Origin: a virus
Taxonomy: Duplodnaviria > Caudoviricetes
IMG/VR virus record: IMGVR_UViG_3300021399_000113
Location: 64,001 to 128,000 of that record
DNA length: 64,000 nt
Strand: one strand, 5' to 3'
In this document: positions 1 to 12,869 of the stretch, piece by piece
How the letters are laid out: every line of letters starts with the position of its first letter
Numbering within the stretch: position 1 is the first letter of the stretch
The notes under the pieces: generated by a model
Seen by the model: only the letters and a program-made list of their open reading frames with translations
Told to the model about the DNA's origin: nothing
Databases searched by the model: none
Made by a program: the position numbers and the translations under genes

Positions 1-101
1 ACGGTACGGCTGGGGGTATCCCCACGGTCAAAGAATGCCATGGTCTTTAAGACATAAGTTAGTACAAAGGTGCACATCTGTACTAATTGACCAACAATCA
101 A

Positions 102-205
102 CGGGTGGCGTGACAGGTTCCCACAAGCGCAGTGGGTGGAGAATGTCAGCGGTCTATCAAACCGTGGGTCAATGACCTATGTAGGTTCAAATCCTTCACT
201 CCCGA
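102..205 (+). ncRNA. atypical tRNA-like RNA (Ser-like long variable arm, anticodon-position ATC, enlarged D arm)
   Basis: GCGGT-CTATCAA-ACCGT stem-loop, GGTC-AAT-GACC variable arm, GGTTCAAATCC T arm; acceptor pairing imperfect. Confidence 0.5.
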
Positions 206-239
206 CTTAGTATTAATATGACATATAGGAGAACAAATC

Positions 240-455
240 TTGGGAGATACAAGAGGTTACTTTGGAAGATATAATCGGTATATAGGCAAGGTAATGCACA
301 TTGATAAAGGGCATAAATATGTGTATGGAGGCAAATCATCCGATGGCTATACCTTTCGAGTAATCCCAGATGACACTTTAATCACGGTCAATTACCAAAC
401 ATTTCGTGAATACCTTCGTGAACGCAAAGTTATGGATATAATCGCAAGGATGTAA
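240..455 (+). CDS. hypothetical protein (TTG start)
   Basis: ORF with AGGAG RBS. Confidence 0.6.
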   Translation: MGDTRGYFGRYNRYIGKVMHIDKGHKYVYGGKSSDGYTFRVIPDDTLITVNYQTFREYLRERKVMDIIARM

Positions 456-466
456 AGGAGTAAAAG

Positions 467-727
467 ATGCAAGTATATCCATTTAATAAACCTTCGTATC
501 TGAAAGAACTTAACAGCTCTCCTACTGAAATTTCTGACACTCTTGTAAGGGAATGGGAAGAGGTAAAGAGTGCGGATGATACACTTGTTACCGCTTTGGA
601 ACGTCTTATCGAAGTCCACGATGATAAGTATGAATTCCCTTATCTTTCCGCAGAAGAACGTACCAAAAAGGCAGAATTTCTTCTTTCGGAAGAGATAGAC
701 AATATTATGAAAGGTAGACTGATATAA
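467..727 (+). CDS. hypothetical protein
   Basis: ORF with AAGGAG RBS. Confidence 0.7.
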   Translation: MQVYPFNKPSYLKELNSSPTEISDTLVREWEEVKSADDTLVTALERLIEVHDDKYEFPYLSAEERTKKAEFLLSEEIDNIMKGRLI

Positions 728-883
728 TTGCCATGTGGAAATCCTTTAATCAAATTGTAAAAGACCTTAACGAAAGAGGGTCAATTCAAATTCCTAACGG
801 ACATGTAACTGGCGAGGAATTTGAAAAGTGGCTTAGAGATGAGTCTAAAGGTAAACTGTCTACAGAGAAGAATACGAAAGGTA

Positions 884-912
884 TTGACATTATTCAATCT
901 TTATGATATAAT
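884..912 (+). promoter_or_regulatory. sigmaA-type promoter driving tRNA array
   Basis: TTGACA-17-TATAAT with extended TG. Confidence 0.85.
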
Positions 913-1036
913 AATCAAGTCAGTTGAGTTGACAGTTGAGTTGATAATTTATGTTAGTCCTTAGCATAAGTTAGTAAACTCATAAGGACACTGTATATCA
1001 ACTGCACAAGTGCTGATTATTAGCTATAGTCAGCAC

Positions 1037-1108
1037 GATGGGTTAGTCAAGTGGTTAAGACACTGCCCTCTCACGGCAGAGACATGGGTTCGACCCCCAT
1101 ACCCATCA
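1037..1108 (+). tRNA. tRNA-Glu(CTC)
   Basis: cloverleaf GATGGGT/ACCCATC, loop CT-CTC-AC. Confidence 0.93.
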
Positions 1109-1109
1109 T

Positions 1110-1625
1110 TATGGTGGTACTTTTGAACACCTAATATTATCGAATATGTGATGCTGTGAATATAGGCGGGAACAAGCAATGAGCAGATAATCTGCTCATA
1201 CCCCAACCTCGTTAGGGTGGCGCATGGACACTGCTCCTATGGCTGAAGGTGTCTATCACATATCTAACAAAATAAGGCATGACCGAGCCTGCCGTAATTT
1301 GGTTGAAACGATATATACCTACGGACGTGCTGATACGTATCAGATATTTTGTTAGCGTTACCTCATCTACCTGTACGTTAAACAGGGTGTTGGCATAAAG
1401 ATGGGGAAAAGTCGTAGTTATATCACACATTAAGGCAAATGAACTTGTGCCAAGTTCTACTACGTGATTTGTGTCTGATGTGGGGTAATAGGAAGTTGAT
1501 AGCGAACATCTGTATGGAATTGAGGCGCAATTTTAGGATGTGGTGTGGCTATGCAAACCAACTAATAGTGTTTAGGCATAGAGTAATGAACACACAGATT
1601 AGTAGCTATCGAATCTTATTATGAT
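1110..1625 (+). ncRNA. candidate large structured ncRNA
   Basis: no credible ORF; nested long-range helices, e.g. 1144-1152/1255-1263, 1264-1274/1345-1355, 1498-1503/1605-1610. Confidence 0.6.
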
Positions 1626-1628
1626 TAT

Positions 1629-1703
1629 GGTGTCTGTAACTTAAATGGATAAAGGGCAAGATTGTGACTCTTGAGGATGTAGGTTCGACTCCTACCAGAC
1701 ACC
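1629..1703 (+). tRNA. tRNA-His(GTG) with G-1
   Basis: loop TT-GTG-AC, G-1:C73 pair. Confidence 0.93.
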
Positions 1704-1744
1704 CTTAGAATTAAAAAATTGCATTGTATATGATAAATATCCGA

Positions 1745-1826
1745 GGGGTGGTCGCATAGTGGCAATTGCGGGGGACTGTAAATCCCTTGCCTCACGGCTT
1801 CGTAGGTTCGAGTCCTACCCGCCCCA
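1745..1826 (+). tRNA. tRNA-Tyr(GTA)
   Basis: loop CT-GTA-AA, long variable arm. Confidence 0.93.
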
Positions 1827-1837
1827 TTAATAAGATG

Positions 1838-1866
1838 TTGACAAATTTAATAAAGTATGATATACT
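1838..1866 (+). promoter_or_regulatory. sigmaA-type promoter
   Basis: TTGACA-17-TATACT. Confidence 0.8.
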
Positions 1867-2046
1867 CTTATCAGAGTTGAGGCGAGGCAACCGTAGAACA
1901 ACGGAAGGCACAAGTAGCTTATATAAGACCATAAACCGACAAGGACAACTCTCACGCAAGGTCGCTCCTTGTTGCGTGTAATAAATGTGGACCAGCTCAT
2001 CAGCCTTGGAAGATGAACTACGGGGAGTGAATAGGCAAATGCATTA

Positions 2047-2119
2047 GCCACAATAACTCAATAGGTAGAGTAACTGATTTGTAATCAGTAAGTTGGGGGT
2101 TCAAATCCCTCTTGTGGCT
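2047..2119 (+). tRNA. tRNA-Thr(TGT)
   Basis: loop TT-TGT-AA, GCCACAA/TTGTGGC acceptor. Confidence 0.93.
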
Positions 2120-2137
2120 TTTCTGTGGAGGTAAAAT

Positions 2138-2419
2138 ATGAGGTACGTAGTAAATGAAGATGTGTATGATGTAGAAGTAGGCGATTATGTCTATTATGCC
2201 AGAGCACTTGACAGCTTAAACATATTTGAGGTTGTTGAATATAAAGTACGTACAGTTGATGCTGATTATTTTGCTGGACTGTCTATGGACAGCAGTGCCA
2301 CATTATTTAGCCCTTCGGATATAGGAAAGACTGTCTTTTTTAATCAGAAAGATGCACAAGATGTTGTCAATACAAGGAAAGACAAGGGATTACGTATTGA
2401 CAAGGTTGAGGAAGAGTGA
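2138..2419 (+). CDS. hypothetical protein
   Basis: ORF with GGAGG RBS. Confidence 0.75.
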   Translation: MRYVVNEDVYDVEVGDYVYYARALDSLNIFEVVEYKVRTVDADYFAGLSMDSSATLFSPSDIGKTVFFNQKDAQDVVNTRKDKGLRIDKVEEE

Positions 2420-2437
2420 TATAATGTACTCATAAAC

Positions 2438-2510
2438 GTGCCCGTAGCTCAGTTGGTAGAGCATTCGACTTTTAATCGAAGGGTCGTGGGTTCAAATCCC
2501 ATCGGGCACA
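2438..2510 (+). tRNA. tRNA-Lys(TTT)
   Basis: loop CT-TTT-AA; promoter TTGACA-17-TATAAT at 2397-2425. Confidence 0.95.
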
Positions 2511-2578
2511 TGTTACAAGTTTACGTCCGAGTACCTCCTGAAATTCCCTCTTGTGATATTTACAAGGGGGAATAATAT

Positions 2579-2650
2579 TGGGCTGTAGCCAAGTGGAAAG
2601 GCATGGGACTTTGACTCCCACATTCGCTGGTTCGAGTCCAGCCAGCCCAG
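2579..2650 (+). tRNA. tRNA-Gln(TTG)
   Basis: loop CT-TTG-AC. Confidence 0.94.
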
Positions 2651-2723
2651 TTTATTCATAAGGCAAACACGATTTATTCATAAGGCAAACACGATTTATT
2701 CATAAGGCAAACACGATTTATTC
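2651..2723. repeat. 22-bp tandem repeat, 3.3 copies (TTTATTCATAAGGCAAACACGA)
   Basis: identical units, no spacers. Confidence 0.95.
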
Positions 2724-2774
2724 TTGATTATTGCTTGGTGATAATTCGCAACTTAGTTGCAAAGTGAGGTATAA

Positions 2775-3434
2775 ATGAAAGCTGACAATTCTCCTAAAAG
2801 CCTAATATGCTACAAAGAGGGTAGAACCTATAAGTGGGTTGTATCTACTGAGGGTAATGAACAAAGTCTCCTATATCTTCTGATGATAAACCCTAAAATT
2901 CAGTTAGAATCTATAATTATCATCCCTATATTTGGGCTGTCTTTTGTAGGAGCTGTTCGTATGGGGTCTCAGAAGAAATTTGAGTTCTACGATTTCTTTA
3001 AGGAATATGGAGAAGCACCGACAATTACTACAAAATTTAATCGTGAAGCGGTAGCTCGTAAATTGTCTCAGATAGCAGAGAAATCAAAAACGAACAAAGA
3101 GGAAGTAGTAGTAGAAGACATTGTAAAGACTGTGTGCCATGAAAAGTATGGATTTATTTCACCCGATGGTGAGTATTATCGGTGTGAGTTCATGGGGCAT
3201 GGAGACTTAGCGTTTGACATTTGTGACGAACACAATTTCCCATATCTTAATTCTGCTGAGACTTATCTTGAAGAGCATGGTTGGTGTAAGGTGTATAATC
3301 CATGTGATAATATCCACAAATACGCTGTATATGTTGGAGGGGATTTTGTACTTACAAAAGAGCAGTTTGAAGTGCTTCAGAAAGAGGGACTTGAAAATGC
3401 ATATTATGTATCTGAGTATCTGGTAAGAGATTAA
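2775..3434 (+). CDS. hypothetical protein
   Basis: 219-aa ORF with GAGG RBS. Confidence 0.8.
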   Translation: MKADNSPKSLICYKEGRTYKWVVSTEGNEQSLLYLLMINPKIQLESIIIIPIFGLSFVGAVRMGSQKKFEFYDFFKEYGEAPTITTKFNREAVARKLSQIAEKSKTNKEEVVVEDIVKTVCHEKYGFISPDGEYYRCEFMGHGDLAFDICDEHNFPYLNSAETYLEEHGWCKVYNPCDNIHKYAVYVGGDFVLTKEQFEVLQKEGLENAYYVSEYLVRD

Positions 3435-3515
3435 GGTGTCTATCCGAATGGTGAGGGGGCTGTTTGCTAAACAGTTGGGCGAAATGCTTTGCGAGTTCGA
3501 ATCTCGTGGACACCG
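3435..3515 (+). tRNA. tRNA-Ser(GCT)
   Basis: loop TT-GCT-AA, long variable arm, G73. Confidence 0.88.
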
Positions 3516-3655
3516 CTTAGAAGGAAAACTAACCAAACCTATTGCGTAGGCTGGAGATAAATCCATAGAGGTCTAACCACTCAGTACCAGTGAAAATCAG
3601 AATCTGAGGAACTTCAGTACATGTGTACTGCGTAAGGGGATTGCGCCCCTTGTAT

Positions 3656-3727
3656 AGATGCTTGGTGTAGAAGGTAGCACAAGGGTCTCCAAAACCTTTA
3701 GCGTGGGTTCGAATCCTCCAGCATCTG
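3656..3727 (+). tRNA. tRNA-Trp(CCA)
   Basis: loop CT-CCA-AA. Confidence 0.92.
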
Positions 3728-3732
3728 CTTTT

Positions 3733-3804
3733 GTTCCTATAGTTTAACGGATAAAATAATGGACTACGAATCTGTTGATACAAGTTCGATTCTTGTTGGG
3801 AACA
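3733..3804 (+). tRNA. tRNA-Arg(ACG)
   Basis: loop CT-ACG-AA. Confidence 0.9.
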
Positions 3805-3809
3805 TTTAC

Positions 3810-3881
3810 ATCTCCGTAGTCTAATGGATAGGCAACGCTCTTCTAAAGCGTCTTATGTGAGTTCGAGCCTCATCGGAGATA
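3810..3881 (+). tRNA. tRNA-Arg(TCT)
   Basis: loop CT-TCT-AA. Confidence 0.9.
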
Positions 3882-3900
3882 TTTTTACAATTAAATATTT

Positions 3901-4027
3901 GGGCTGGTAGCCGAATCGGTATAGGCGGTAGCATTGCGAAAAATCAGTGTAGTCGATTAGACTGATACAGCAATTATCAAATGCATCATGGAGCTACTAT
4001 TTATGGGTTCAAGTCCCATCCAGCCCG
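3901..4027 (+). tRNA. tRNA-like gene whose anticodon loop is replaced by a 60-nt structured insert (identity uncertain, possibly CAT)
   Basis: perfect GGGCTGG/CCAGCCC acceptor, D and T arms; GTAGC/GCTAC stem encloses 3933-3992. Confidence 0.8.
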
Positions 4028-4029
4028 TT

Positions 4030-4148
4030 GGAAGGGTGGTGTAGTGGTAACACACGTATTATAAGTAGTTTAGTTGATTTACTACGTCTGCAATTATCAA
4101 AATTAGCCTGTTACGCTCGTGTCGAAGGTTCGATTCCTTCCCCTTCCG
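4030..4148 (+). tRNA. tRNA (Asp-like body, GTT anticodon) with 48-nt insert in the anticodon stem
   Basis: GGAAGGG/CCCTTCC acceptor; removing 4057-4104 restores CGAGC-CTGTTAC-GCTCG. Confidence 0.8.
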
Positions 4149-4227
4149 TTTTACCCCCCCCCCAAATAATGGAGTTGACAAATTTACTGAGATGTGGTAT
4201 ACTCTTCCACAAGTGAGGTACAGAGAT

Positions 4228-4797
4228 ATGAATAAATCGAGAAACATAGTATTTCTTGATGTGGATGGAGTATTAAACGGATATGACAGATTTTGGTATG
4301 CTATCTTCTGTCTGTTTAAAGTCACTAAATCAAAGAAGCTAATGGATTATTGGCACACCCATCTTGGATGCAGTGCATGGGCACATAAAGTATTTTACTT
4401 ATCAATTATAACACATTTAACACACTCAGACGTGGTATTATCTTCTTGCTGGAGAATGCGGTGGGAAACACACAATTCTCCAAAAAGAATGCGATTAAAG
4501 AAACTATTTAAGAGATTTGGTGTAAATGTGGTTGATACAACTATTCAGAAATATCTAAATGGTCGTGGGGAAGAAATCTCTTTATGGTTATCAGAACATG
4601 GTAATCCTAAAAATTACATTATTATTGATGATGAAACTTGTGACCAGTTAGAACACCTTGACCACATCATAAAAACAAGAAATCCTAAACTTGCAAATAC
4701 CGATATGATACAAGGCGGTGTTTCTGAAAAGACTGGATTAAGAGTACATCATATATTCAAAGCCATTCGGTTAATGAGATATTGGAGTAAGAAATAA
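4228..4797 (+). CDS. HAD-family phosphatase, Swiss-army-knife RNA repair type
   Basis: IVFLDVDGVLN, VVLSSCWR, RGEEI..WL, IIIDD motifs; start moved to 4228 because a promoter occupies 4175-4203. Confidence 0.8.
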   Translation: MNKSRNIVFLDVDGVLNGYDRFWYAIFCLFKVTKSKKLMDYWHTHLGCSAWAHKVFYLSIITHLTHSDVVLSSCWRMRWETHNSPKRMRLKKLFKRFGVNVVDTTIQKYLNGRGEEISLWLSEHGNPKNYIIIDDETCDQLEHLDHIIKTRNPKLANTDMIQGGVSEKTGLRVHHIFKAIRLMRYWSKK

Positions 4798-4850
4798 GGT
4801 ATTGACAAATTCAATATTTTGTGATACAATGTCCTTGTTGTGAAGGACAT

Positions 4851-4938
4851 GGTGGGATAGCCTAATTGGTAAGGCACTTGCACTGAAAGCAAGCGTTACG
4901 TTAATAGCGTATTGGGGGTTCGAATCCCTCTCCCATCG
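4851..4938 (+). tRNA. tRNA-Ser(TGA), non-canonical loop AC-TGA-AA
   Basis: long variable arm, G73; promoter TTGACA-17-TACAAT at 4802-4830. Confidence 0.8.
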
Positions 4939-4948
4939 TTAGCCCATT

Positions 4949-5022
4949 GCCGTATTAGACAAGTCAGGTTAAGCCTGCGGACTGCAACTCCGTGACCGCT
5001 GGTTCGAATCCAGCATACGGCT
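4949..5022 (+). tRNA. tRNA-Cys(GCA)
   Basis: loop CT-GCA-AC, U73. Confidence 0.9.
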
Positions 5023-5026
5023 TGTA

Positions 5027-5088
5027 ACGATGTTAACCGCAAATACACAAATGGTTGACTGCAAATCAATAAACTATAAACACATCGT
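5027..5088 (+). ncRNA. WCNGCAA-motif stem RNA 1 (carries Cys anticodon stem-loop mimic)
   Basis: ACGATGT/ACATCGT stem, TA-ACCGCAA, GTTGA-CTGCAAA-TCAAT. Confidence 0.65.
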
Positions 5089-5102
5089 GGAGGATGAAAA
5101 TT

Positions 5103-6596
5103 ATGGGATTTTATGAAGAACTTACAAAGGTTGCTAACAATGTAGCAGTAACTGAAAATGGAGCAATTGCGTATCGTACAAGTGGCTCTGCCCTTGTTGA
5201 TATGAACTTTGAAGTATCTGCATTCCGCAATAACGTAACAGCGGGTGTAGATATGTTCAAGAGAGCATACGCAGAAAATCCTAAGCTTGCTGTGCTTTAC
5301 CTCTTCTATCTCAGAGATTGCAGAGGTGGTCTTGGTGAACGTAATACCTTTAGAAACTGTTTTGCATGGCTTGCAAATAACCATGTAAATATGGCTAAGG
5401 CTGTACTTTCACTCATTTCTGAATATGGTAGATGGGATGACCTTGTAGCCCTTGTTGATACAAAGGTTAAGAAGGATGCCCTCGCTATCGTTTCAACACA
5501 GTTAAAGGCTGATATTGACAACATGAAGAATGGTAAGAGCATTTCTTTGCTTGCAAAGTGGATGCCCTCTATCAATACTTCTTCAAATAAGACACGTGCA
5601 CTCGCCAGAGTAATCTGCCGTGAGTTCATGAATATGCCTTATTCTGAGTACAGAAAGACTCTTGCTAAGTTGAGAGCATATACCAATGTCGTAGAGACAA
5701 AGATTTCCGCTAACAAGTGGGATGAAGTAGATTACAACACTGTTCCCTCTATGGCAAATCTGAAGTACAAGAATGCTTTCCTTAAGCATGATACTGACAG
5801 AAGAACCGCTTACCTTGAAGCACTCGTAAAGGGTGACTCCAACGTTAAGATTAACGCAAGTACCCTTACTTGTGTTGACATTGTAGATAAGTACAGTGAT
5901 GGTCGTAGTTACTGGAATGGCTCTGTAAAGAGCGACTTAGACGTAACCCTTGAGGAACTTTGGAAGGCACTTCCGTCTTTCAGTGTTGAAGATACTGTTG
6001 TAGTGAGGGATGGCTCTGGTTCTATGATTGGCACACCTCTCACTGTTGCTACTGCACTTGCAGTTTATACTGCACAGCACAACAAGGGTGAGTTCAAGGA
6101 TAAGTATATCACCTTCTCTGCTGACCCTCGTGTAATTGACATCTCCAAGTGCTCAACACTTCATGATGCCCTCATTAGGTCTTACAGAGAGGACGATTGC
6201 TCCAATACAAATCTGAAGAAGGTATTTCGTCTTATCCTTGATACAGCACGTATGAACAAGTATAAGAATGAAGACCTTCCTAAGAATATCCTCGTTATCT
6301 CTGATATGCAGTTTGACGCTGGCTACATGGCTATGCCTCTCATGTCAGAAATCGAGTTGGAGTACAGACAGTACGGATATGACCTTCCTAAGTTGATTTT
6401 CTGGAATGTTGCTGGTAGTGTGAACAGAACTATTCCTGTAACTGTCAACAAGAATGGTGTAATCCTTATCTCTGGATATACTCAGTCCCTTCTTAAGATG
6501 GTAATGTCCAACGAGACAGACCCTTACAAGGCACTTGTGGCAACCCTTGCTACCGAGAGATACAAAGCGGTAGCGGATGCCCTTGACCTTGTATAA
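5103..6596 (+). CDS. DUF2828-family protein (Ro/TROVE-like helical domain plus vWA)
   Basis: TENGA, RDCRGGLGER, YGRWDDL, LLAKWMPS, DGSGSM, SDMQFD, FWNV motifs; ATG 5103 has a properly spaced GGAGG. Confidence 0.88.
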   Translation: MGFYEELTKVANNVAVTENGAIAYRTSGSALVDMNFEVSAFRNNVTAGVDMFKRAYAENPKLAVLYLFYLRDCRGGLGERNTFRNCFAWLANNHVNMAKAVLSLISEYGRWDDLVALVDTKVKKDALAIVSTQLKADIDNMKNGKSISLLAKWMPSINTSSNKTRALARVICREFMNMPYSEYRKTLAKLRAYTNVVETKISANKWDEVDYNTVPSMANLKYKNAFLKHDTDRRTAYLEALVKGDSNVKINASTLTCVDIVDKYSDGRSYWNGSVKSDLDVTLEELWKALPSFSVEDTVVVRDGSGSMIGTPLTVATALAVYTAQHNKGEFKDKYITFSADPRVIDISKCSTLHDALIRSYREDDCSNTNLKKVFRLILDTARMNKYKNEDLPKNILVISDMQFDAGYMAMPLMSEIELEYRQYGYDLPKLIFWNVAGSVNRTIPVTVNKNGVILISGYTQSLLKMVMSNETDPYKALVATLATERYKAVADALDLV

Positions 6597-6706
6597 AAAT
6601 AAGGTATTGACTTTTTGAAAAAAGTGTTGTATATTATTATATGACACTTGAAGAACAAAAGAGGTAAATCGGCAAGGTTCAGATAACCAACCTCCCCTTG
6701 CGACAT

Positions 6707-6780
6707 TCCCCTTTAGCTCAGTTGGTCAGAGCGAGTGGCTGTTAACCACTATGTCGTAGGTTCGATTCCTACAGGGGGAG
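6707..6780 (+). tRNA. tRNA-Asn(GTT)
   Basis: loop CT-GTT-AA. Confidence 0.95.
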
Positions 6781-6782
6781 CT

Positions 6783-6890
6783 GAGGCATTCACTGCAAAT
6801 TCTTCTAAAACAAATGGGATAAAGAAGAAAATGATTTGTGTTGTTATTGCCAGACATTTCAAAGGTAACATCTATCGCTGTTTGTGCCTC
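6783..6890 (+). ncRNA. WCNGCAA-motif stem RNA 2
   Basis: GAGGCAT/GTGCCTC stem followed by TC-ACTGCAA. Confidence 0.55.
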
Positions 6891-7023
6891 GTTTAAACAG
6901 TGGATTACTGATGGTGTTCTGAGGGCAACACAATCGACCTCTTATTATGAATCCGCTAATAGTAATAAGAGCCGTTAGGTTACTCACCAACATTGATTTA
7001 GTCGGATTTACCATCCGACACCA

Positions 7024-7096
7024 CGGGGTGTGGCGCAAATGGTAGCGCACGTGCTTTGGGAGCATGGGGTTGTGGGTTCGAGTCCCGTCACTCCGA
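7024..7096 (+). tRNA. tRNA-Pro(TGG)
   Basis: loop TT-TGG-GA. Confidence 0.94.
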
Positions 7097-7109
7097 CTTA
7101 AAAATCATC

Positions 7110-7185
7110 GGTGTATTAGTGTAGTTGGTCTAACACGTCTGCCTTGCAAGCAGAATGTCGTGGGTTCGAGTCCCACATGCATCCA
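7110..7185 (+). tRNA. tRNA with TGC (Ala) anticodon and atypical acceptor stem
   Basis: loop CT-TGC-AA; no G3:U70 in the standard register. Confidence 0.75.
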
Positions 7186-7497
7186 CGTGGCTGACAATAT
7201 TCTTATATCGGAAAGCCCTGCGTAGTGGGAGCTAAATAGATAGAGGGTGGCAACCTTAATAGCTCAACATTGCTTATCGTAATACGTCCCAAGTACAATG
7301 AATAAAAGGTAAGCAAATGTTGTAATCCGCAAGATGTGTCATGCGGTATAAAAATTATGAAACATCCTCTATGGGTATCGGGATATGAAAGGTGAATCCA
7401 CCCACATAGAGTGAACCCAAAAGCCCATGATATTATTGGACTATGCGTGAATGTCCCTTTGAGGGGCTAAAAAATATCTGAAACGCTTGGTGATATT
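7186..7497 (+). ncRNA. candidate structured ncRNA
   Basis: ORF-free stretch with consecutive helices. Confidence 0.45.
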
Positions 7498-7579
7498 GGG
7501 GGATTGGTGGAATTGGCAGACACACGGGATTTAAGCTCCCGTGGAACAATCCGTGTGGGTTCAAGTCCCACATCCCTCA
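7498..7579 (+). tRNA. tRNA-Leu(TAA)
   Basis: loop TT-TAA-GC, variable arm. Confidence 0.93.
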
Positions 7580-7585
7580 GTTATA

Positions 7586-7686
7586 AAGACAGTTACTGCA
7601 ATCACATTGCAAAGTTATTTAAGGAAATAATACCATTGATGTTCTACGTGTCCAACGTACCGCATTAAACGCAAACAAACTGTCTT
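7586..7686 (+). ncRNA. WCNGCAA-motif stem RNA 3
   Basis: AAGACAG/CTGTCTT stem followed by TT-ACTGCAA. Confidence 0.6.
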
Positions 7687-7725
7687 GATATTTAATGATT
7701 TTGATTTTTAATTTTAATTAATTTA

Positions 7726-7793
7726 ACGATACATACAGCAACTATTACACAAGCCTTTCACTTTTAATGAAAAACAGCTAAGAAACGTATCGT
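7726..7793 (+). ncRNA. WCNGCAA-motif stem RNA 4 (carries Lys anticodon stem-loop mimic)
   Basis: ACGATAC/GTATCGT stem, AT-ACAGCAA, TTTCA-CTTTTAA-TGAAA. Confidence 0.65.
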
Positions 7794-7837
7794 GTATTAT
7801 TTAACTAACTTTTAATTTAATTTTTAGATTACTTAAA

Positions 7838-7923
7838 ACGACAGCATCAGCAACACAAACATCTTTCCTATTTATAATTTATAATTCCACAAATTACGAA
7901 AAGGGCGAATGAAAAACTGTCGT
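7838..7923 (+). ncRNA. WCNGCAA-motif stem RNA 5
   Basis: ACGACAG/CTGTCGT stem followed by CA-TCAGCAA. Confidence 0.6.
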
Positions 7924-7936
7924 GTATATTGATTAT

Positions 7937-8010
7937 TGCAGGGTGGCGCAAAAGGTTAGCTCAGTGGACTCATAATCCAAAGGTTGGGGGTTCAAATCCC
8001 TCCCCTGCAA
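7937..8010 (+). tRNA. tRNA-Met(CAT), initiator-like acceptor
   Basis: loop CT-CAT-AA, TGCAGGG/CCCTGCA. Confidence 0.88.
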
Positions 8011-8054
8011 CTTGCACGTAACTGTGCTAAACCTTATTTTTATTCAATATAAAA

Positions 8055-8097
8055 GCATCTATCGTTTTAGTGTACTATTGCGGTAGGTGTTTTTTTT
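8055..8097 (+). terminator. intrinsic terminator ending the tRNA array
   Basis: GCATCTATCG/CGGTAGGTGT hairpin followed by a T run. Confidence 0.75.
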
Positions 8098-8155
8098 CTA
8101 TTGACAAATCCACTAAATTGGTATATAATGTATCTATACGTGGAGGAATGAAAAA

Positions 8156-8473: not shown

Positions 8474-9199
8474 ATGAAAAAGTATTTCGTATTTTCAGAC
8501 GTGCATGGATATTTTGATATATTGGATAAAGCACTTAAAGATAGAGGATTTGACAAGGATAATCCAGACCACATCATAATCTCTTGTGGTGATTTGTTAG
8601 ACAGAGGAAGACAGCCAAGAGAATGTTTAGAGTTTGTAATGGGCATTCCAGAAGATAGACGTATCTTGGTTATGGGAAATCATGATGACCTCTTATGGAC
8701 GCTACTTATGACAAGAAATCCTCATATACACGATATTACGAATGGCACTGTAGATACAGTCATTGATTTCGTAGGAAGAAATGTTAATAACAAAGAAAAG
8801 TATTCACTGCTTGATGCTGACCTTGTTGACATGAAAGAAGACCCTTTGTGGAAGAGTTACTACAATGCGCTTGTGCCTTATGCAGAAGTTGGAGATAGGA
8901 TATTTGTTCATGGATGGTTACCATCCCTTGATTATAAGAATGCTACTTTTAGAGACTGGCGAGATGCTATGTGGCTTAATGGCATGAGAGAGTGGTTTGA
9001 AGATTATCAACTTGCTGACAAAACAATCTTTTGTGGACACTGGCACACATCTTGGGGGCACTATTACATACACAAGATAGGGTCAGAGTGGGACGAAGAT
9101 GCTTGTTTTGATGTATTTGAAGATAAAGGGATAGTTGCTCTCGATGCTTGCACAGCACATTCTCAAAAAATTAACGTTTATACATTTGAAACAGAATAA
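8474..9199 (+). CDS. calcineurin-like metallophosphoesterase
   Basis: SDVHG, GDLLDRG, GNHD, VHG, GHWH. Confidence 0.9.
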   Translation: MKKYFVFSDVHGYFDILDKALKDRGFDKDNPDHIIISCGDLLDRGRQPRECLEFVMGIPEDRRILVMGNHDDLLWTLLMTRNPHIHDITNGTVDTVIDFVGRNVNNKEKYSLLDADLVDMKEDPLWKSYYNALVPYAEVGDRIFVHGWLPSLDYKNATFRDWRDAMWLNGMREWFEDYQLADKTIFCGHWHTSWGHYYIHKIGSEWDEDACFDVFEDKGIVALDACTAHSQKINVYTFETE

Positions 9200-9214
9200 A
9201 CTGTTGGAGGTACT

Positions 9215-10519
9215 ATGGATTTACTATTAAAGATTGCAAACAGAATACAAGAATGTGGTGGAGAAATTTTCTATGTTGGTGGATATGTCAGAGACAAGAT
9301 TATCGGAAAGCCCAATAAGGACATTGATGTAGAAATCTACAATATCACACCAGATGACCTTAAATCCATCTTGGCTGAATTCGGTGAGGTGCAGACTATT
9401 GGTAAATCCTTTGGTATCTACAACATTAAAGGGTTGGATATTGATTTTGCTCTTCCTCGTACAGAAACAGCTACTGGTAGAGGGCATAAGGATTTTGAAG
9501 TATTTGTTGACCCATTCATCGACAAGAAGACCGCTTGCTCAAGAAGAGATTTTACCATGAATGCTCTGATGGAGAATGTAAATACTGGTGAAGTTTTAGA
9601 TTTCTTTGGTGGCAGAGAAGATATTAATAATAAAATAATTAGGCACGTTTCTGATGAAACTTTCAGTGAAGACCCCTTAAGAGTATTAAGGGCTTGTCAG
9701 TTTTCATCAAGATTCGGATTTGAAATTGCTGAAGAAACAAAGGAACTTGCACGTAAAGCTGACCTTACAGCACTTCCTTCTGAGCGTATCTTTGAGGAAA
9801 TTAAAAAGGCGCTTACTAAATCAAAAAAGCCCTCAATCTTTTTTAATGCGCTAAAGGAAATGGGGTATGAATATTTATTCCCAGAGTTATACAGACTTGA
9901 CAGAATTGAACAGTCTGCTGATTATCATCCAGAGGGAAATGTATATGTACATACAATGTGTGTACTTGATAGCCTTGCAGAACTTGGTTATCATGATTTA
10001 AAACTTATGTTATCAGCCCTCTGTCATGATATGGGCAAGTATGAGGCACATACATTTGATGGAAAGAAGCATCACTTCTACAACCATGAGAGCGTTGGGT
10101 TGCCTATTGCAGAAGCATTTCTTTCAAGACTTACCAATGAGACAGAAATTCATAAATATGTGCTTGATATGGTTAAGAACCACATGAGGATTCATCAATC
10201 ATTAAAATCTAAAAAGCCAAAGGTGTGGAATAGAATTTTTGATGAATCTATTGCTCCCTCAATGCTTATTGAGTTATCTTTTGCTGATACGCTTAACAAA
10301 GATAAGTATGAGCACCTTAAGGCAATCGAGTGGTATACAAAATACAGTAACCACTGTCAGGATGATAAACAGTTACAGGGTAAAGATTTGGTAGCGTTAG
10401 GATATAAGCCCAGCCCAAGATTTACCGATATTTTGAACTTTGCTCATGGTTTATGGTTGAGCATGACACCTTATGACCAGATAGTTAAAGCAGTTACAAA
10501 GGAATTTCCTATTGACTAA
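9215..10519 (+). CDS. cca: CCA-adding tRNA nucleotidyltransferase with HD domain
   Basis: VGGYVRD, DIDVE, RRDFTMNAL, EDPLRVLRA, HPEG..HT, HDMGK. Confidence 0.92.
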   Translation: MDLLLKIANRIQECGGEIFYVGGYVRDKIIGKPNKDIDVEIYNITPDDLKSILAEFGEVQTIGKSFGIYNIKGLDIDFALPRTETATGRGHKDFEVFVDPFIDKKTACSRRDFTMNALMENVNTGEVLDFFGGREDINNKIIRHVSDETFSEDPLRVLRACQFSSRFGFEIAEETKELARKADLTALPSERIFEEIKKALTKSKKPSIFFNALKEMGYEYLFPELYRLDRIEQSADYHPEGNVYVHTMCVLDSLAELGYHDLKLMLSALCHDMGKYEAHTFDGKKHHFYNHESVGLPIAEAFLSRLTNETEIHKYVLDMVKNHMRIHQSLKSKKPKVWNRIFDESIAPSMLIELSFADTLNKDKYEHLKAIEWYTKYSNHCQDDKQLQGKDLVALGYKPSPRFTDILNFAHGLWLSMTPYDQIVKAVTKEFPID

Positions 10520-10560
10520 TTTAACTATTTATGTTATCATAAGATATGTGGAGGAATATT

Positions 10561-11544
10561 ATGTTAGATATTAACTTTTTGAATGAAAAAGAATACGACT
10601 TTCTCCGAACAGATAAACGTTTAGGTGATAACGTACATATTTTAGCATTTGGTGGTTCTCATGCTTATGGTACAAATGTGCCCACCAGTGATATTGATGT
10701 GCGTGGAATAGCCTCAAATTCTATTGATGATGTTATTCTCAATAAAGGATTTGAAGAGATTACTGATAACACAACAGATACTGTTATTTATTCTGTTGAG
10801 AAGATGTTTAGACTTCTTGCACAGTGTAACCCTAATACCATTGAAATCGTTGGTGTAAAGGACTACCTTAAAGTTGATGAAATCGGAAAGATGATTCTTG
10901 ATAACAAGAGTATCTTCCTTTCCAATGCTTGCACAAGAACATTTGGTGGATATGCTACACAGCAGTTATATCGTTTAAGACAGAAAACACTCAATGCGCT
11001 TGAAGAAGATGAACTTGAGCGTCATATCGCTAAGGTTTTAAATGAGATGGATAAATACATCAAAGAGAACTTTGGCATCTCGGATTATAGGGTTTACTAT
11101 GACACAGAGCTTAAAATTGATATGCCAGCCGTTAAAGGATTTCCAATGGAAAAACTTTATGATTATCTTAATACTCTCAACTGTGTGGTTAGGGATTATC
11201 ATAAGCGCTCTGTCAGAAATGAAAAGGCTATTGCCCATAACAAGATTAACAAACATGCTATGCATCTTCTCAGACTGTTTATGATGGAAGAAGATTTACT
11301 GCTTAGGGGTGAGGTAATCACCTATCGAGAGAAAGAGCATGACTTGCTTATGGCAATTAGAAATGGAGAGTTTTACGATACTGAAAGTGGACAGATGACA
11401 GCAGAATTCTTCAAATTGTTAGAGGATTATGAGAAGAGAGTTGAATATGCAAAAGAGCACTCAATTCTCCCTAACAAGCCTAACATGAAAGCCATTGATA
11501 AGTTACAGTTGGATATTTTCAATAAAAGGTTGGAGATGAGATGA
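10561..11544 (+). CDS. RlaP-like Pol-beta-family nucleotidyltransferase
   Basis: GGSHAYGTN..SDIDVRG, NPNTIE, KHAMHLLRL, LMAIRNG. Confidence 0.85.
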   Translation: MLDINFLNEKEYDFLRTDKRLGDNVHILAFGGSHAYGTNVPTSDIDVRGIASNSIDDVILNKGFEEITDNTTDTVIYSVEKMFRLLAQCNPNTIEIVGVKDYLKVDEIGKMILDNKSIFLSNACTRTFGGYATQQLYRLRQKTLNALEEDELERHIAKVLNEMDKYIKENFGISDYRVYYDTELKIDMPAVKGFPMEKLYDYLNTLNCVVRDYHKRSVRNEKAIAHNKINKHAMHLLRLFMMEEDLLLRGEVITYREKEHDLLMAIRNGEFYDTESGQMTAEFFKLLEDYEKRVEYAKEHSILPNKPNMKAIDKLQLDIFNKRLEMR

Positions 11545-12869
11545 TAACAGAGATAACACCTATCAGCTTATTCTTTAATGTATTAGACCATATAGTTGGT
11601 ACAAACAATAAAAAGAATTACATACAGCAGTATGCTACCGAAGATATAAAATACGTTATGCAGTGGCTATACGATACCAGTATAGTCACTGGCATTTCTG
11701 ACAGTAAGTATGACAAAGAGGTTGAAGAGGTTCAGCCTTATAAGACCTTAAAAGAATTGTTCTTATACCTTAGCAAGAGGCATACTGGGAGTGATTATGA
11801 TATATCTGTGGTTAAATCCACAGCAAAGCAACTGTGTAAATGTGAGACTGATTTCAAATTCTTTAAATCATTATTAACTAAAAATGTAAAGGTTGGAATT
11901 GACAGTAAGTTAATAAATTCGGTATTTCCGAATTTAATTCCGACCTTTGATGTGATGTTGGCTGATAAATACCTTGATTTAGATGATAAGCAATTAAATA
12001 AAGTATCTAATAATGGCACAAGGGAATTTGTACTACAAGAAAAGTTGGATGGATTTAGGTGCATTGCTATTAAAGAGGGTGAAAGCGTTAGACTTATTTC
12101 CAGACAAGGTAAGTTGTATGAGAATTTAGTTGATGTAGAATCTGCTATTATCAAGACATTTAAGGGATATGACTGTGTACTTGATGGAGAACTTCTAATA
12201 TCTAACAGAGAGAATATTCCAAGCAAAGAACAGTACAAAGCCACGTCAAAGTTGGTAACCCTTAAAGATGTGGAAATTAAAGGAATTACATATAACGTAT
12301 TTGATTTATTACCAATTACTGATTGGCAGAATAAAGTTGGTAATAAACCTTACGATGATAGATACAGCACGTTATGTTCTTATATGGCTAAAAACACCAG
12401 CAATGCCATTAAAATCGTCCCTTGCTTATATCGTGGTAACAATCTCGATGAAGTATTAACAAGGCTTAAAATAGCCAAAGAAATGAACTGGGAAGGGTTA
12501 ATGCTGAGGTGGGTAGACTCCCTTTATGAATTTAAACGTAGCAAAGAATTACTAAAAGTTAAGCCCTTTAATGAAATGGATTTAATCATTACTGGGTATG
12601 AAGAAGGAACTAATAAAAACAAAGGAAAACTTGGTGCATTTATATGTGAGGTAGAACACCCTAAATTTGGTCATATTGAAGCCAAAGTAGGTGGTGGATA
12701 TTCTGATGAAGAAAGAGAGAGATTCGCAGAAATCCGTAATGATTTAATTGGAAGAACTATTGAAGTGCAATACTTTGAGGTTACTGAAAATACTACAACA
12801 CATATTAAGTCATTAAGATTTCCTGTATATAAATGTATAAAAGACATAGGAGTTGTACCAAACAACTAA
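11541..12869 (+). CDS. lig: ATP-dependent DNA ligase
   Basis: EKLDGFR, LDGEL, YNVFD, EGLMLR, LLKVK, SLRFP. Confidence 0.93.
   Translation: MITEITPISLFFNVLDHIVGTNNKKNYIQQYATEDIKYVMQWLYDTSIVTGISDSKYDKEVEEVQPYKTLKELFLYLSKRHTGSDYDISVVKSTAKQLCKCETDFKFFKSLLTKNVKVGIDSKLINSVFPNLIPTFDVMLADKYLDLDDKQLNKVSNNGTREFVLQEKLDGFRCIAIKEGESVRLISRQGKLYENLVDVESAIIKTFKGYDCVLDGELLISNRENIPSKEQYKATSKLVTLKDVEIKGITYNVFDLLPITDWQNKVGNKPYDDRYSTLCSYMAKNTSNAIKIVPCLYRGNNLDEVLTRLKIAKEMNWEGLMLRWVDSLYEFKRSKELLKVKPFNEMDLIITGYEEGTNKNKGKLGAFICEVEHPKFGHIEAKVGGGYSDEERERFAEIRNDLIGRTIEVQYFEVTENTTTHIKSLRFPVYKCIKDIGVVPNN

What the first reader, a model, noticed from the sequence alone, without database searches (positions are those of the whole stretch)
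3901..7923. Candidate new ribonucleoprotein system: a Ro-like DUF2828 gene surrounded by seven RNAs sharing one stem + WCNGCAA module
Seen: five intergenic elements (5027-5088, 6783-6890, 7586-7686, 7726-7793, 7838-7923) share one layout: a 7-bp closing stem whose sequence differs but whose pairing is kept (ACGATGT/ACATCGT, GAGGCAT/GTGCCTC, AAGACAG/CTGTCTT, ACGATAC/GTATCGT, ACGACAG/CTGTCGT), then 2 nt, then ACCGCAA, ACTGCAA, ACTGCAA, ACAGCAA or TCAGCAA, then a variable payload, and usually an A-rich run before the 3' strand. The last three are separated by U-rich spacers. The same module occurs in permuted order inside two tRNA genes (3933-3992, 4057-4104). All of them flank the DUF2828 gene (5103-6596). 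Known: Ro60/Rsr (TROVE + vWA) proteins bind a conserved helix in Y RNAs, and bacterial YrlA RNAs join that helix to a tRNA-like domain. Inference: these are Y-RNA-like partners of the DUF2828 protein, with a constant protein-binding handle and interchangeable payloads. I know of no described RNA partner for this family.
Basis: partly seen in the sequence, partly recalled or inferred. Interest (0 to 1): 0.9.

Follow-up and report, generated by a model that had tools for sequence, protein, structure and literature searches.

The report
Phage Ro60-like protein with handle RNAs
A rumen or gut phage encodes a protein that folds like the RNA-binding ring Ro60, flanked by five small RNAs (plus two tRNA-shaped ones) sharing a conserved "handle"; the pairing recurs in very different phages, I found it in no RNA catalogue or paper, and it is probably a second kind of Ro/Y-RNA particle.

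Summary
All five elements sit exactly where stated, each with a perfect 7-bp closing stem, 2 nt, then WCNGCAA. A covariance model ranks them as the five best hits in the window and finds no others in the 138-kb genome.

They belong to a large family with consensus WAGRCNC-NN-ACAGCAA-payload-GNGYCTW. In 80 metagenomic phage loci holding a DUF2828 homologue, the signature occurs 313 times on the gene's strand and 25 times on the other. Most copies lie within 500 nt of the gene.

The same RNAs lie beside the gene in Listeria A511, a Felix O1-like coliphage, Bacillus PBC2, Enterococcus EFDG1 and a Vibrio phage. Four phages without the gene lack them.

The protein's predicted fold matches Ro60 over its whole length (Z 17.3) and keeps an intact MIDAS motif.

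Payloads are often anticodon-arm mimics or whole tRNA bodies.

No Rfam family matches the window's elements. Phage A511 copies give a sub-threshold match to Dictyostelium Class I RNA, which has the same stem-plus-ACAGCAA design.

Binding to the protein is inferred, not shown. This scan has noted the same system in about 100 other genomes. I found no published description; one preprint only speculates about it.

The parts
3901..4027 (+). tRNA-shaped RNA 1. It has acceptor, D and T arms. The anticodon region is replaced by a capped handle: hairpin 3945-3964, AU, ACAGCAA at 3967-3973.
   Evidence: Rfam tRNA 47.2 bits with a 57-nt insert; fold; capped-handle test gives 6 of 7 pairs.
4030..4148 (+). 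tRNA-shaped RNA 2. It has a weaker handle (5-bp hairpin 4065-4085, GU, CUGCAA at 4088-4093), followed by an anticodon-arm-like hairpin with loop CUGUUAC.
   Evidence: Rfam tRNA 44.6 bits with a 61-nt insert.
4192..4797 (+). Neighbouring gene with a HAD domain of the 'Swiss Army Knife' RNA-repair type.
   Evidence: Pfam PF18143, 5.8e-17.
4802..4830 (+). Sigma-70-like promoter (TTGACA, 17 nt, TACAAT; 11 of 12 matches). It lies ahead of tRNA-Ser, tRNA-Cys, element 1 and the DUF2828 gene. Inferred only.
5027..5088 (+). Handle RNA 1. Stem ACGAUGU/ACAUCGU, then UA, then ACCGCAA. The payload is an anticodon-arm mimic at 5054-5070 with loop CUGCAAA (GCA). It starts 4 nt after tRNA-Cys(GCA) and ends 14 nt before the ATG.
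   Evidence: (42.8 bits; in the training set).
5103..6596 (+). Ro60-like protein gene (DUF2828 + DUF7788; helical-repeat ring plus vWA domain with MIDAS residues D303-x-S305-x-S307).
   Evidence: Pfam; PHROG 850 'RNA-binding protein', 4.5e-116; AF2 model with pLDDT 84; Foldseek top 13 hits all Ro60; VIA-align Z 17.3 over about 400 residues; invariant residues.
6607..6635 (+). Sigma-70-like promoter (10 of 12 matches) ahead of tRNA-Asn and the downstream RNA array. Inferred only.
6783..6890 (+). Handle RNA 2. Stem GAGGCAU/GUGCCUC, then UC, then ACUGCAA, with a 78-nt multi-hairpin payload. It starts 1 nt after tRNA-Asn.
   Evidence: (12.3 bits, E 1.5, fifth-best hit in the window). An RNA-library contig covers 6794-6954.
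7586..7686 (+). Handle RNA 3. Stem AAGACAG/CUGUCUU, then UU, then ACUGCAA, with a three-hairpin payload. It starts 5 nt after tRNA-Leu.
   Evidence: 21.4 bits, E 0.007, not in the training set; fold z-score -4.4.
7726..7793 (+). Handle RNA 4. Stem ACGAUAC/GUAUCGU, then AU, then ACAGCAA. The payload is an anticodon-arm mimic at 7756-7772 with loop CUUUUAA (UUU).
   Evidence: (45.3 bits; in the training set).
7838..7923 (+). Handle RNA 5. Stem ACGACAG/CUGUCGU, then CA, then UCAGCAA, with an AU-rich hairpin payload. It ends 13 nt before tRNA-Met.
   Evidence: (18.6 bits, E 0.037, not in the training set).
8474..12869 (+). Neighbouring RNA-repair-type genes: metallophosphoesterase (8474-9199), CCA-adding enzyme with HD domain (9215-10519), RlaP-family nucleotidyltransferase (10546-11544) and an ATP-dependent ligase (11541-12869).
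   Evidence: Pfam; PHROGs.

Best explanation
The five elements are small non-coding RNAs of a widespread phage family, and the two tRNA-shaped RNAs are probably members as well. Each RNA has a constant handle and a variable payload. The handle is a 6-7-bp helix that either joins the RNA's two ends or is capped by a small loop. It is followed by 2 nt and a single-stranded WCNGCAA motif (family consensus ACAGCAA). The payload is often an anticodon-arm mimic that begins about 10-13 nt after the motif. In some members it is a tRNA body or a circularly permuted tRNA. The RNAs appear to be transcribed with the tRNA array and with the Ro60-like gene, and then cut out by tRNA-processing enzymes (inferred). 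The Ro60-like ring protein (DUF2828, with a vWA domain) most likely binds the handle, as Ro60 binds the bulged stem of Y RNAs. The resulting particles would display tRNA look-alike parts. The RNA-repair genes around the locus suggest a role in the contest over tRNA cleavage and repair, for example as decoys, sensors or tethers for tRNA-acting enzymes. So does a report that a probable Felix O1-type orthologue counters a host defence. Shown here: the family exists, its structure is conserved, it is linked to the gene, and the protein's predicted fold matches Ro60. Inferred: expression as discrete RNAs, binding to the protein, and the function.
For: Family and strand bias: the handle signature occurs 313 times on the gene's strand and 25 times on the other strand in 80 DUF2828 loci (736 kb). 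Of these, 127 lie in the 500 nt before the gene and 43 in the 500 nt after it, with none in the 1,000 bases from the gene's start.
Tight linkage: 73 of 80 loci have an element upstream of the gene, and 46 of these end within 58 nt of the start codon (14 nt in this window).
Reverse test: I scanned IMG/VR for AAGACACNNACAGCAA. A DUF2828 gene was in the same fragment for 18 of 42 matches with a closed stem, against 1 of 72 without one. For closed matches without a local gene, 7 of 8 near-complete genomes carry the gene elsewhere.
Cultured phages, whole genomes: the window's genome, A511, warpig, PBC2 and EniLVp02 carry the gene and have model hits on its strand, within 0.2-4 kb of the gene in most and about 11 kb away in EniLVp02. 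In EFDG1 the pattern scan finds two elements just upstream of the gene. AhSzq-1, S-RIM8, vB_EalM-132 and phage K lack the gene and have no hit at E below 0.1.
Structure: all 7 stem pairs vary through compensatory changes, but stem pairing was a selection criterion. The payload hairpin was not selected; it pairs in 77-79% of cells and every one of its pairs shows double changes.
Anticodon-arm payloads: 52 of 159 short elements have a strict anticodon-arm hairpin, against 4.65 expected from shuffles.
tRNA-bodied form: 156 of 182 long 'intron' tRNAs near these genes carry CNGCAA, and 100 of 101 unique ones have a capped 7-nt hairpin just 5' of the motif.
Protein: Foldseek's top 13 hits are all Ro60 (probability 1.0). 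VIA-align gives Z 17.3 with rmsd 4.2-4.3 A over 399-409 residues, against Z 11.6 or less for hits to the vWA domain alone. The MIDAS DxSxS residues are invariant.
Context: RNA-repair genes flank the locus here and in A511, which has RtcB and an RNA ligase nearby.
Precedent: canonical Ro60 genes in bacteria and phages have Y RNAs encoded within 4 kb on the same strand, with a terminal stem and a CGAA motif in a bulge (PMC4201824, PMC12135203).
Against: There is no direct evidence that the protein binds these RNAs. The loci were chosen through DUF2828, so another gene that always travels with it could be the true partner.
Expression as discrete small RNAs is not shown. Only metatranscriptome contigs of a related phage cover parts of the region, and phage DNA in those libraries cannot be excluded.
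The short elements do not fold much better than shuffled sequence (z-scores -0.7 and -0.9), so the structure rests on comparison between phages.
In the PhageMaP preprint the Ro60-like gp130 of Bas63 countered the ppl defence when expressed alone from a plasmid or from T7, without its neighbouring RNAs (PMC11482910). At least that activity may therefore not need them.
The motif differs from the Ro-binding GNCGAA motif of known Y RNAs.
In this window only 1 of the 5 motifs is the exact consensus, and element 2 is a weak model hit (E 1.5).
Confidence: 0.65

Rival explanations
1. The elements are punctuation for the tRNA operon: processing, stabilising or spacer signals recognised by host or phage RNases or by another neighbouring enzyme. 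On this view they lie near DUF2828 only because that gene also lives in tRNA arrays.
For: Elements abut tRNA genes, with 1-5 nt between a tRNA's 3' end and three of the five elements. The 7-bp stem plus 2 nt mimics an acceptor stem. U-rich spacers separate the last three. The gene is always near tRNAs in cultured phages.
Against: Phages with tRNA genes but no DUF2828 gene lack the elements genome-wide: AhSzq-1, S-RIM8, vB_EalM-132 and phage K. In A511 the three copies sit directly before the gene, about 1.2 kb from the nearest annotated tRNA. A single-stranded heptamer that stays constant across phages of Firmicutes and Proteobacteria, while the proteins share only about 30-35% identity, points to one specific conserved reader.
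Confidence: 0.12
2. The handle is mainly an operator on the protein's own mRNA. The protein would bind the copy next to its ribosome-binding site to control its own translation, and the other copies would be by-products.
For: An element ends 14 nt before the ATG here, directly against the GGAGGA. In 46 of 73 loci with an upstream element, it ends within 58 nt of the start codon.
Against: This does not explain arrays of 3-14 copies, copies downstream of the gene, payloads that mimic anticodon arms 11 times more often than chance, or handles embedded in complete tRNA bodies. It is compatible with the main explanation rather than opposed to it.
Confidence: 0.08
3. The handle marks a new kind of intervening sequence or split or permuted tRNA gene. 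On this view it is cut out and the ends are rejoined by the phage's RNA-repair enzymes, so the tRNA-shaped copies (3901-4027 and 4030-4148) mature into working tRNAs.
For: Both are good cloverleaves with 57- and 61-nt inserts. Ligase, phosphoesterase, nucleotidyltransferase and CCA-adding genes lie next door. Relatives include circularly permuted tRNA layouts.
Against: The stand-alone elements have no tRNA body to mature. ARAGORN places the 'intron' at inconsistent positions (31-42) and assigns inconsistent anticodons. In relatives the insert usually lies between the D arm and an intact anticodon arm, not at position 37/38. No group I intron or ribozyme family matches. RNA 1 has no recognisable anticodon arm after the insert.
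Confidence: 0.08

Closest known systems
Ro60 (Rsr) with Y RNAs, especially bacterial and phage YrlA/YrlB (Rfam RF02553; Chen et al. 2014, PMC4201824) and Thermus phage phiLo Ro60 with Yrl1/Yrl2 (PMC12135203)
   Same: A ring protein with helical repeats plus a vWA/MIDAS domain. Its partner RNAs are encoded within a few kb on the same strand. The RNA ends pair in a stem next to a short conserved unpaired motif. The rest of the RNA mimics tRNA. RNA-repair genes lie nearby.
   Different: The protein has no sequence-level match to TROVE or to any solved Ro60; it belongs to Pfam DUF2828/DUF7788 instead. The motif is (A)CAGCAA rather than GNCGAA. The RNAs come in arrays of several per genome. The payload is typically the anticodon arm, which YrlA lacks. 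The Rfam YrlA model gives only a 27.8-bit hit (threshold 69), and that hit comes from the T and D arms of two adjacent tRNA-shaped RNAs.
Class I RNAs of dictyostelid social amoebae (Rfam RF01414; Kjellin et al. 2021, PMC7919456)
   Same: The design is the same: a short stem joining the 5' and 3' ends, then a conserved unpaired motif next to the 5' strand, then a variable body of about 60 nt. Stem sequence is free but pairing is kept. The Rfam consensus reads GaUcuC-CUUACAGCAAUua...GagAuC-UG. Phage A511 elements align over the full model with CUAACAGCAAUUA and a trailing CUG.
   Different: The scores are below threshold: 23.1 and 19.6 bits against a threshold of 41.5 for A511. This window's elements give no hit at all at E up to 10. 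Class I RNAs are eukaryotic, have their own DUSE promoter, and were reported as unique to Dictyostelia. Their known direct binder is an RRM protein. Whether dictyostelids have a DUF2828 protein could not be tested here. Convergence is not excluded.
Bas63 gp130, a Ro60-like anti-defence protein of a Felix O1-type coliphage (PhageMaP preprint, PMC11482910)
   Same: It is described as structurally similar to Ro60 and sits directly upstream of the tRNA genes in a Felixounavirus. That matches the position of the DUF2828 gene in phage warpig, where I found handle RNAs. The authors guessed that some neighbouring 'tRNA genes' are Y RNAs.
   Different: I infer that gp130 is a DUF2828 member from synteny and taxonomy; I did not check it by sequence. 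The preprint identifies no RNA. The protein worked against the ppl defence without the phage's RNAs.

Membership tests
Y RNA / YrlA (Rfam RF02553) | Encoded within about 4 kb of a Ro60 gene on the same strand | tested here: met
   All five elements lie within 1.4 kb of the Ro60-fold gene on the + strand. The same holds in 73 of 80 related loci.
Y RNA / YrlA (Rfam RF02553) | 5' and 3' ends pair in a terminal stem | tested here: met
   All five have perfect 7-bp stems. Across the family every stem pair varies through compensatory changes, although pairing was a selection criterion.
Y RNA / YrlA (Rfam RF02553) | Ro-binding motif GNCGAAN0-1G near the 5' end | tested here: not met
   The motif here is ACCGCAA, ACUGCAA, ACAGCAA or UCAGCAA. 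The family consensus is ACAGCAA.
Y RNA / YrlA (Rfam RF02553) | Score at or above the Rfam gathering threshold (69 bits) | tested here: not met
   The five elements give no hit at E up to 5. The only YrlA hit is 27.8 bits at 3974-4083, and it comes from tRNA arms.
Y RNA / YrlA (Rfam RF02553) | tRNA-like domain with T arm, closed acceptor stem and D arm | tested here: not met
   None of the window's five stand-alone elements has one. Some relatives do, for example L010 7617-7739, PBC2 and EFDG1.
Y RNA / YrlA (Rfam RF02553) | Physically bound by the Ro60 protein | not testable with these tools
   This needs RIP, CLIP or EMSA.
Dictyostelium Class I RNA (Rfam RF01414) | Short stem joining the two ends, plus a conserved ~11-nt motif (..U..C..CAA) next to the 5' strand | tested here: met
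   The layout is the same. Only one of the window's five motifs is the exact ACAGCAA.
Dictyostelium Class I RNA (Rfam RF01414) | Score at or above the Rfam gathering threshold (41.5 bits) | tested here: not met
   The window's elements give no hit at E up to 10. A511 relatives score 23.1 and 19.6 bits.
Dictyostelium Class I RNA (Rfam RF01414) | DUSE promoter about 60 nt upstream, in a dictyostelid genome | tested here: not met
   This is a phage tRNA operon with sigma-70-like promoters.
Ro60 / TROVE protein | Helical-repeat ring closed by a vWA domain | tested here: met
   The AF2 model (pLDDT 84, pTM 0.84) matches Ro60 structures over residues 10-473 with Z 17.3 and Foldseek probability 1.0. 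This rests on a predicted structure.
Ro60 / TROVE protein | MIDAS motif DxSxS in the vWA domain | tested here: met
   D303, S305 and S307 are invariant in 34 homologues (VRDGSGSM).
Ro60 / TROVE protein | Sequence-level membership (Pfam TROVE, or a profile match to solved Ro60) | tested here: not met
   Pfam reports only DUF2828 and DUF7788. A profile of 34 homologues finds no Ro60 among PDB sequences.
Intron-containing tRNA (for 3901-4027 and 4030-4148) | An insert at position 37/38 or a self-splicing group I intron that leaves a normal anticodon loop after removal | tested here: not met
   The inserts of 57 and 61 nt match no intron or ribozyme family. In relatives the insert position is inconsistent and usually lies between the D arm and the anticodon arm.

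The most novel reading that the evidence does not exclude
The stem-plus-ACAGCAA handle is an ancient protein-binding module shared between phage RNAs and the unexplained Class I RNAs of Dictyostelium, with DUF2828-type Ro60-like proteins as its general reader. In phages, the particle would present a library of anticodon arms and tRNA bodies as decoys or sensors against host nucleases and other defences that target tRNA.
Probability: 0.15. Interest if true: 0.9.

Novelty: new variant of a known kind. Interest (0 to 1): 0.8.

Why it matters
Ro60 and its Y RNAs are a classic but poorly understood RNA-surveillance particle. They are also a human autoantigen.

This finding points to a second, much larger branch of that system. 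A Ro60-fold protein family has about 5,700 homologues among the candidates scored in one database search and occurs in 709 sequenced phages. Those phages include laboratory ones such as A511 and Felix O1-type phages.

The family's RNA partners have a different handle, come in arrays, and display anticodon arms. That makes three questions directly testable in tractable phages:
- what Ro-type rings do with tRNA-like RNAs;
- how a probable member of the protein family counters a bacterial defence;
- what the 'Class I' RNAs of social amoebae are for, since they share the handle design.

It also shows that many 'intron-containing tRNAs' and unannotated gaps in phage tRNA arrays are genes of this RNA family.

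Tried and rejected
The gene neighbourhoods of the closest homologues (P0001 at 94%, P0002 at 75%, P0003 at 61% identity) could therefore not be read.
- Rfam at gathering thresholds and at E up to 5-10 gave nothing for the five elements. That includes ribozyme and intron families, which I had considered because the elements sit right after tRNAs.
- Metatranscriptomes: three rumen or gut RNA runs hold short contigs at 90-100% identity over parts of 5049-7935, including contigs across elements 2-5. Contigs cannot show RNA ends, strand or level, and phage DNA in the libraries is not excluded. I do not count this as evidence of expression.
- Single-sequence folding: the z-scores of the short elements are not significant.
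- My first 'unclosed' control set for the pattern scan turned out to be contaminated. Several of its matches are real elements with a 6-bp stem (AAGACAC...GUGUCUA), and 3 of 5 large control contigs carry the gene. I therefore rely on the local 2x2 table and on the whole-genome tests in cultured phages.
- I guessed the accession of Bas63 in order to check gp130 by sequence. MZ501111 is Bas51, a different phage, so I dropped this.
- The phage K transcriptome paper (PMC9241854) reports abundant non-coding RNAs near tRNAs. Phage K has neither the gene nor the elements, so that paper gives no expression evidence for this family.
- Complex prediction was not used, because it does not take RNA.
- The ESM Atlas returned only DUF2828 clusters from viruses and Bacillota, with no eukaryotic lead.
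- The Avesson et al. 2011 paper on Class I RNA-binding proteins is not in the library.

Full report
WHAT IS THERE

Window bases 1-8100 are a phage tRNA array. ARAGORN finds 17 tRNAs. Rfam adds two cloverleaves with 57- and 61-nt inserts at 3901-4027 and 4030-4148. The window is part of a 138.6-kb virus record.

Three begin 1-5 nt after a tRNA. One ends 14 nt before the start codon of gene 5103-6596. One ends 13 nt before tRNA-Met.

The gene matches Pfam DUF2828 and DUF7788 and PHROG 850, 'RNA-binding protein'. Its neighbours are RNA-repair types: a HAD domain of the 'Swiss Army Knife' kind, two metallophosphoesterases, a CCA-adding enzyme, an RlaP nucleotidyltransferase and an ATP-dependent ligase.

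Sigma-70-like promoters at 4802-4830 and 6607-6635 suggest two transcription units. The first would hold tRNA-Ser, tRNA-Cys, element 1 and the gene. The second would hold tRNA-Asn, element 2, further tRNAs, elements 3-5 and tRNA-Met. This is inferred from consensus matches only.

IS IT MORE THAN CHANCE?

A homologue search scored 8,000 candidates and found 5,713 relatives. tblastn found the gene in 709 sequenced phages.

I fetched 80 IMG/VR loci through an alignment of homologues and scanned them with a simple pattern: 7-nt stem, 2 nt, NCNGCAA, then the complement within 130 nt.
- The pattern hits 313 times on the gene's strand and 25 times on the other strand.
- With a slightly wider search, 327 hits include 127 in the 500 nt before the gene and 43 in the 500 nt after it, with none in the 1,000 bases from the gene's start.
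- The family consensus is WAGRCNC-NN-ACAGCAA-(U/A-rich)-payload-(A-rich)-GNGYCUW.
- 73 of 80 loci have an element upstream of the gene, and 46 of these end within 58 nt of the start codon.

I then ran the test in reverse by scanning IMG/VR for AAGACACNNACAGCAA.
- Among matches whose stem closes, 18 of 42 have a DUF2828 gene in the same, arbitrarily cut, fragment. Among matches whose stem does not close, 1 of 72 does.
- For nine searchable closed matches without a local gene, 7 of the 8 near-complete genomes carry the gene elsewhere. The exception proved to be a chance match inside coding sequence, and so did the ninth, on a 10.9-kb fragment.
- Some 'unclosed' matches are real elements with a 6-bp stem, so that control set is imperfect.

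A covariance model (R1) was built from 80 non-redundant short elements of other phages plus two from this window. Run with filters off, it ranks the window's five elements as its five best hits. It finds none elsewhere in the genome.

CULTURED PHAGES

The same RNAs lie beside the gene in phages of very different hosts:
- Bacillus phage PBC2: seven copies.
- Listeria phage A511: three tandem copies directly before the gene.
- Enterococcus phage EFDG1: two copies.
- The Felix O1-type coliphage warpig: two copies.
- Vibrio phage EniLVp02: three model hits in its tRNA array, one clear (E 0.012) and two marginal. I had picked this phage as a negative control and it turned out to carry the gene.

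Whole-genome searches give the following:
- A511, warpig and PBC2 have model hits only next to the gene and on its strand.
- Four phages without the gene have no hit at E below 0.1. These are the T5-like AhSzq-1, cyanophage S-RIM8, Exiguobacterium phage vB_EalM-132 and Staphylococcus phage K.

The proteins of these cultured phages are only 31-40% identical to the window's protein. The heptamer is nevertheless unchanged.

ANATOMY OF THE RNA FAMILY

The terminal stem varies through compensatory changes at all seven pairs, although pairing was a selection criterion.

The payload was not selected for.
- In an alignment of 82 short elements, a 5-bp hairpin with a 7-nt loop pairs in 77-79% of cells, and every one of its pairs shows double changes.
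- A strict anticodon-arm shape (five pairs; loop Y-U-NNN-R-N) occurs in 52 of 159 unique short elements, against 4.65 expected from shuffles. It usually starts 10-13 nt after the motif.
- The 'anticodons' are mostly UUU, GUU, GCU and UGA, and 45 of 52 loops end in AA.

In this window, element 1 carries loop CUGCAAA (GCA) right after the tRNA-Cys(GCA) gene. Element 4 carries CUUUUAA (UUU). Elements 2, 3 and 5 have other hairpins.

Longer relatives carry a T arm, a whole tRNA body, or a circularly permuted tRNA with the order anticodon arm, T arm, closed acceptor stem, D arm. That last layout is why Rfam's YrlA model gives them sub-threshold hits.

A third form is a normal tRNA body with the handle inserted as a capped hairpin.
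- 156 of 182 long 'intron' tRNAs called by ARAGORN near these genes contain CNGCAA.
- In 100 of 101 unique ones, the 7 nt before the spacer pair with an upstream strand. This is usually across a 3-5-nt loop, most often a tetraloop.

The window's 3901-4027 fits this form with 6 of 7 pairs. The second, 4030-4148, fits more loosely, with a 5-bp stem and spacing one base short.

Within a genome, the outer three base pairs of the handle stem are more alike than chance (0.385 against 0.193 in shuffles). The inner three are not. This suits one genome-specific reader, but shared ancestry of the copies could also produce it.

THE PROTEIN

An AlphaFold2 model built from 34 homologues has pLDDT 84 and pTM 0.84.
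- Foldseek's best 13 PDB matches are all Ro60: Thermus phage phiLo, Xenopus, human and Deinococcus.
- VIA-align gives Z 17.3 with rmsd 4.2-4.3 A over 399-409 residues spanning model residues 10-473. Matches to the vWA domain alone reach at most Z 11.6.
- The MIDAS residues D303, S305 and S307 are invariant.
- No sequence method connects the family to Ro60.

It is therefore a Ro60-fold protein but not a TROVE family member by sequence. Several GenBank records already label homologues 'Ro-like RNA binding protein'.

HOW IT PROBABLY WORKS

Known Ro60 genes in bacteria and phages have their Y RNAs encoded within 4 kb on the same strand. Those RNAs have a terminal stem, a CGAA-type motif in a bulge, and a tRNA-like domain (PMC4201824, PMC12135203). 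The present system has the same logic with a different handle and, typically, the anticodon arm as cargo.

I therefore think the protein binds the handle and the particle displays tRNA look-alike parts. Two things point to the conflict over tRNA cleavage and repair: the RNA-repair neighbours, and the report that Bas63 gp130 counters the ppl defence. gp130 is Ro60-like, sits just upstream of the tRNAs in a Felixounavirus, and is probably an orthologue (PMC11482910).

That same report is also the main caution, because gp130 worked alone, without the phage's RNAs. Binding, discrete expression and function are all inferred. Metatranscriptome contigs cover parts of the region but prove little.

COMPARISON WITH WHAT IS KNOWN

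No Rfam family reaches threshold for these elements.

- The paper describes a 6-bp terminal stem and an 11-nt motif with invariant U3, C6, C9, A10 and A11.
- The Rfam consensus reads GaUcuC-CUUACAGCAAUua...GagAuC-UG.
- Two A511 elements align to the whole model, at 23.1 and 19.6 bits against a threshold of 41.5.
- The window's own, more degenerate copies give no hit.

The design is the same, but membership fails, and I could not test whether dictyostelids have a DUF2828 protein.

My paper searches found no description of these RNAs.

This scan has recorded the same system in at least 97 other genomes. That is not independent evidence. It does mean the finding is a further instance, not a first sighting.

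VERDICT

The feature is real and strongly conserved. It is most likely a new variant of the Ro60/Y-RNA particle. Confidence that the RNAs are a genuine family linked to this gene is about 0.95. Confidence that they are bound partners of the protein is about 0.65.

Noticed in passing
window 7327-7455 (+), within the 312-nt gap between tRNA-Ala and tRNA-Leu: A second conserved non-coding stretch. It is 70-81% identical to segments downstream of the DUF2828 gene in five other loci (L025, L029, L031, L036, L050). RNAalifold predicts two helical domains, but only 2 pairs show compensatory changes. No Rfam match. An RNA-library contig covers 7219-7390.
   Followed up: partly
L194 3483-4034 (Listeria phage A511, between tRNA-Pro and gp59): A near-threshold match to ROOL RNA (87.5 bits, gathering score 99.1, E 2.7e-16), about 1 kb upstream of the Ro60-like gene. 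It is unannotated in the record.
   Followed up: no
window 4154-4163: A run of ten C between tRNA-shaped RNA 2 and the promoter-like site of the HAD gene. It could be a slippage-prone tract or an assembly artefact.
   Followed up: no
window 6891-7023: A 133-nt unannotated gap after element 2 with two clear hairpins. It has no relatives among the fetched loci. The deepest RNA-library contig (depth 25) spans 6794-6954.
   Followed up: partly
L192 (Bacillus phage PBC2, KT070867.1): The record annotates its tRNAs on the strand opposite to the DUF2828 gene. Rfam finds them on the same strand as the gene, so the deposited strand labels look wrong. The annotated 'tRNA-Ile' at locus 3323-3395 lies inside a handle RNA (3281-3403).
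   Followed up: partly
80 IMG/VR loci, L001-L080: The outer three base pairs of the handle stem are homogenised within a genome (0.385 identical pairs against 0.193 in shuffles). The inner three are not. This window's own version is ACGA...UCGU in three of five copies.
   Followed up: partly
NC_029009.1 146197-146250 (+) (Enterococcus phage EFDG1): A marginal model hit (19.2 bits, E 0.059), about 43 kb from the Ro60-like gene across the junction of the circular record and on the other strand. The two pattern-defined elements next to the gene were missed by the model's first-look filter.
   Followed up: no
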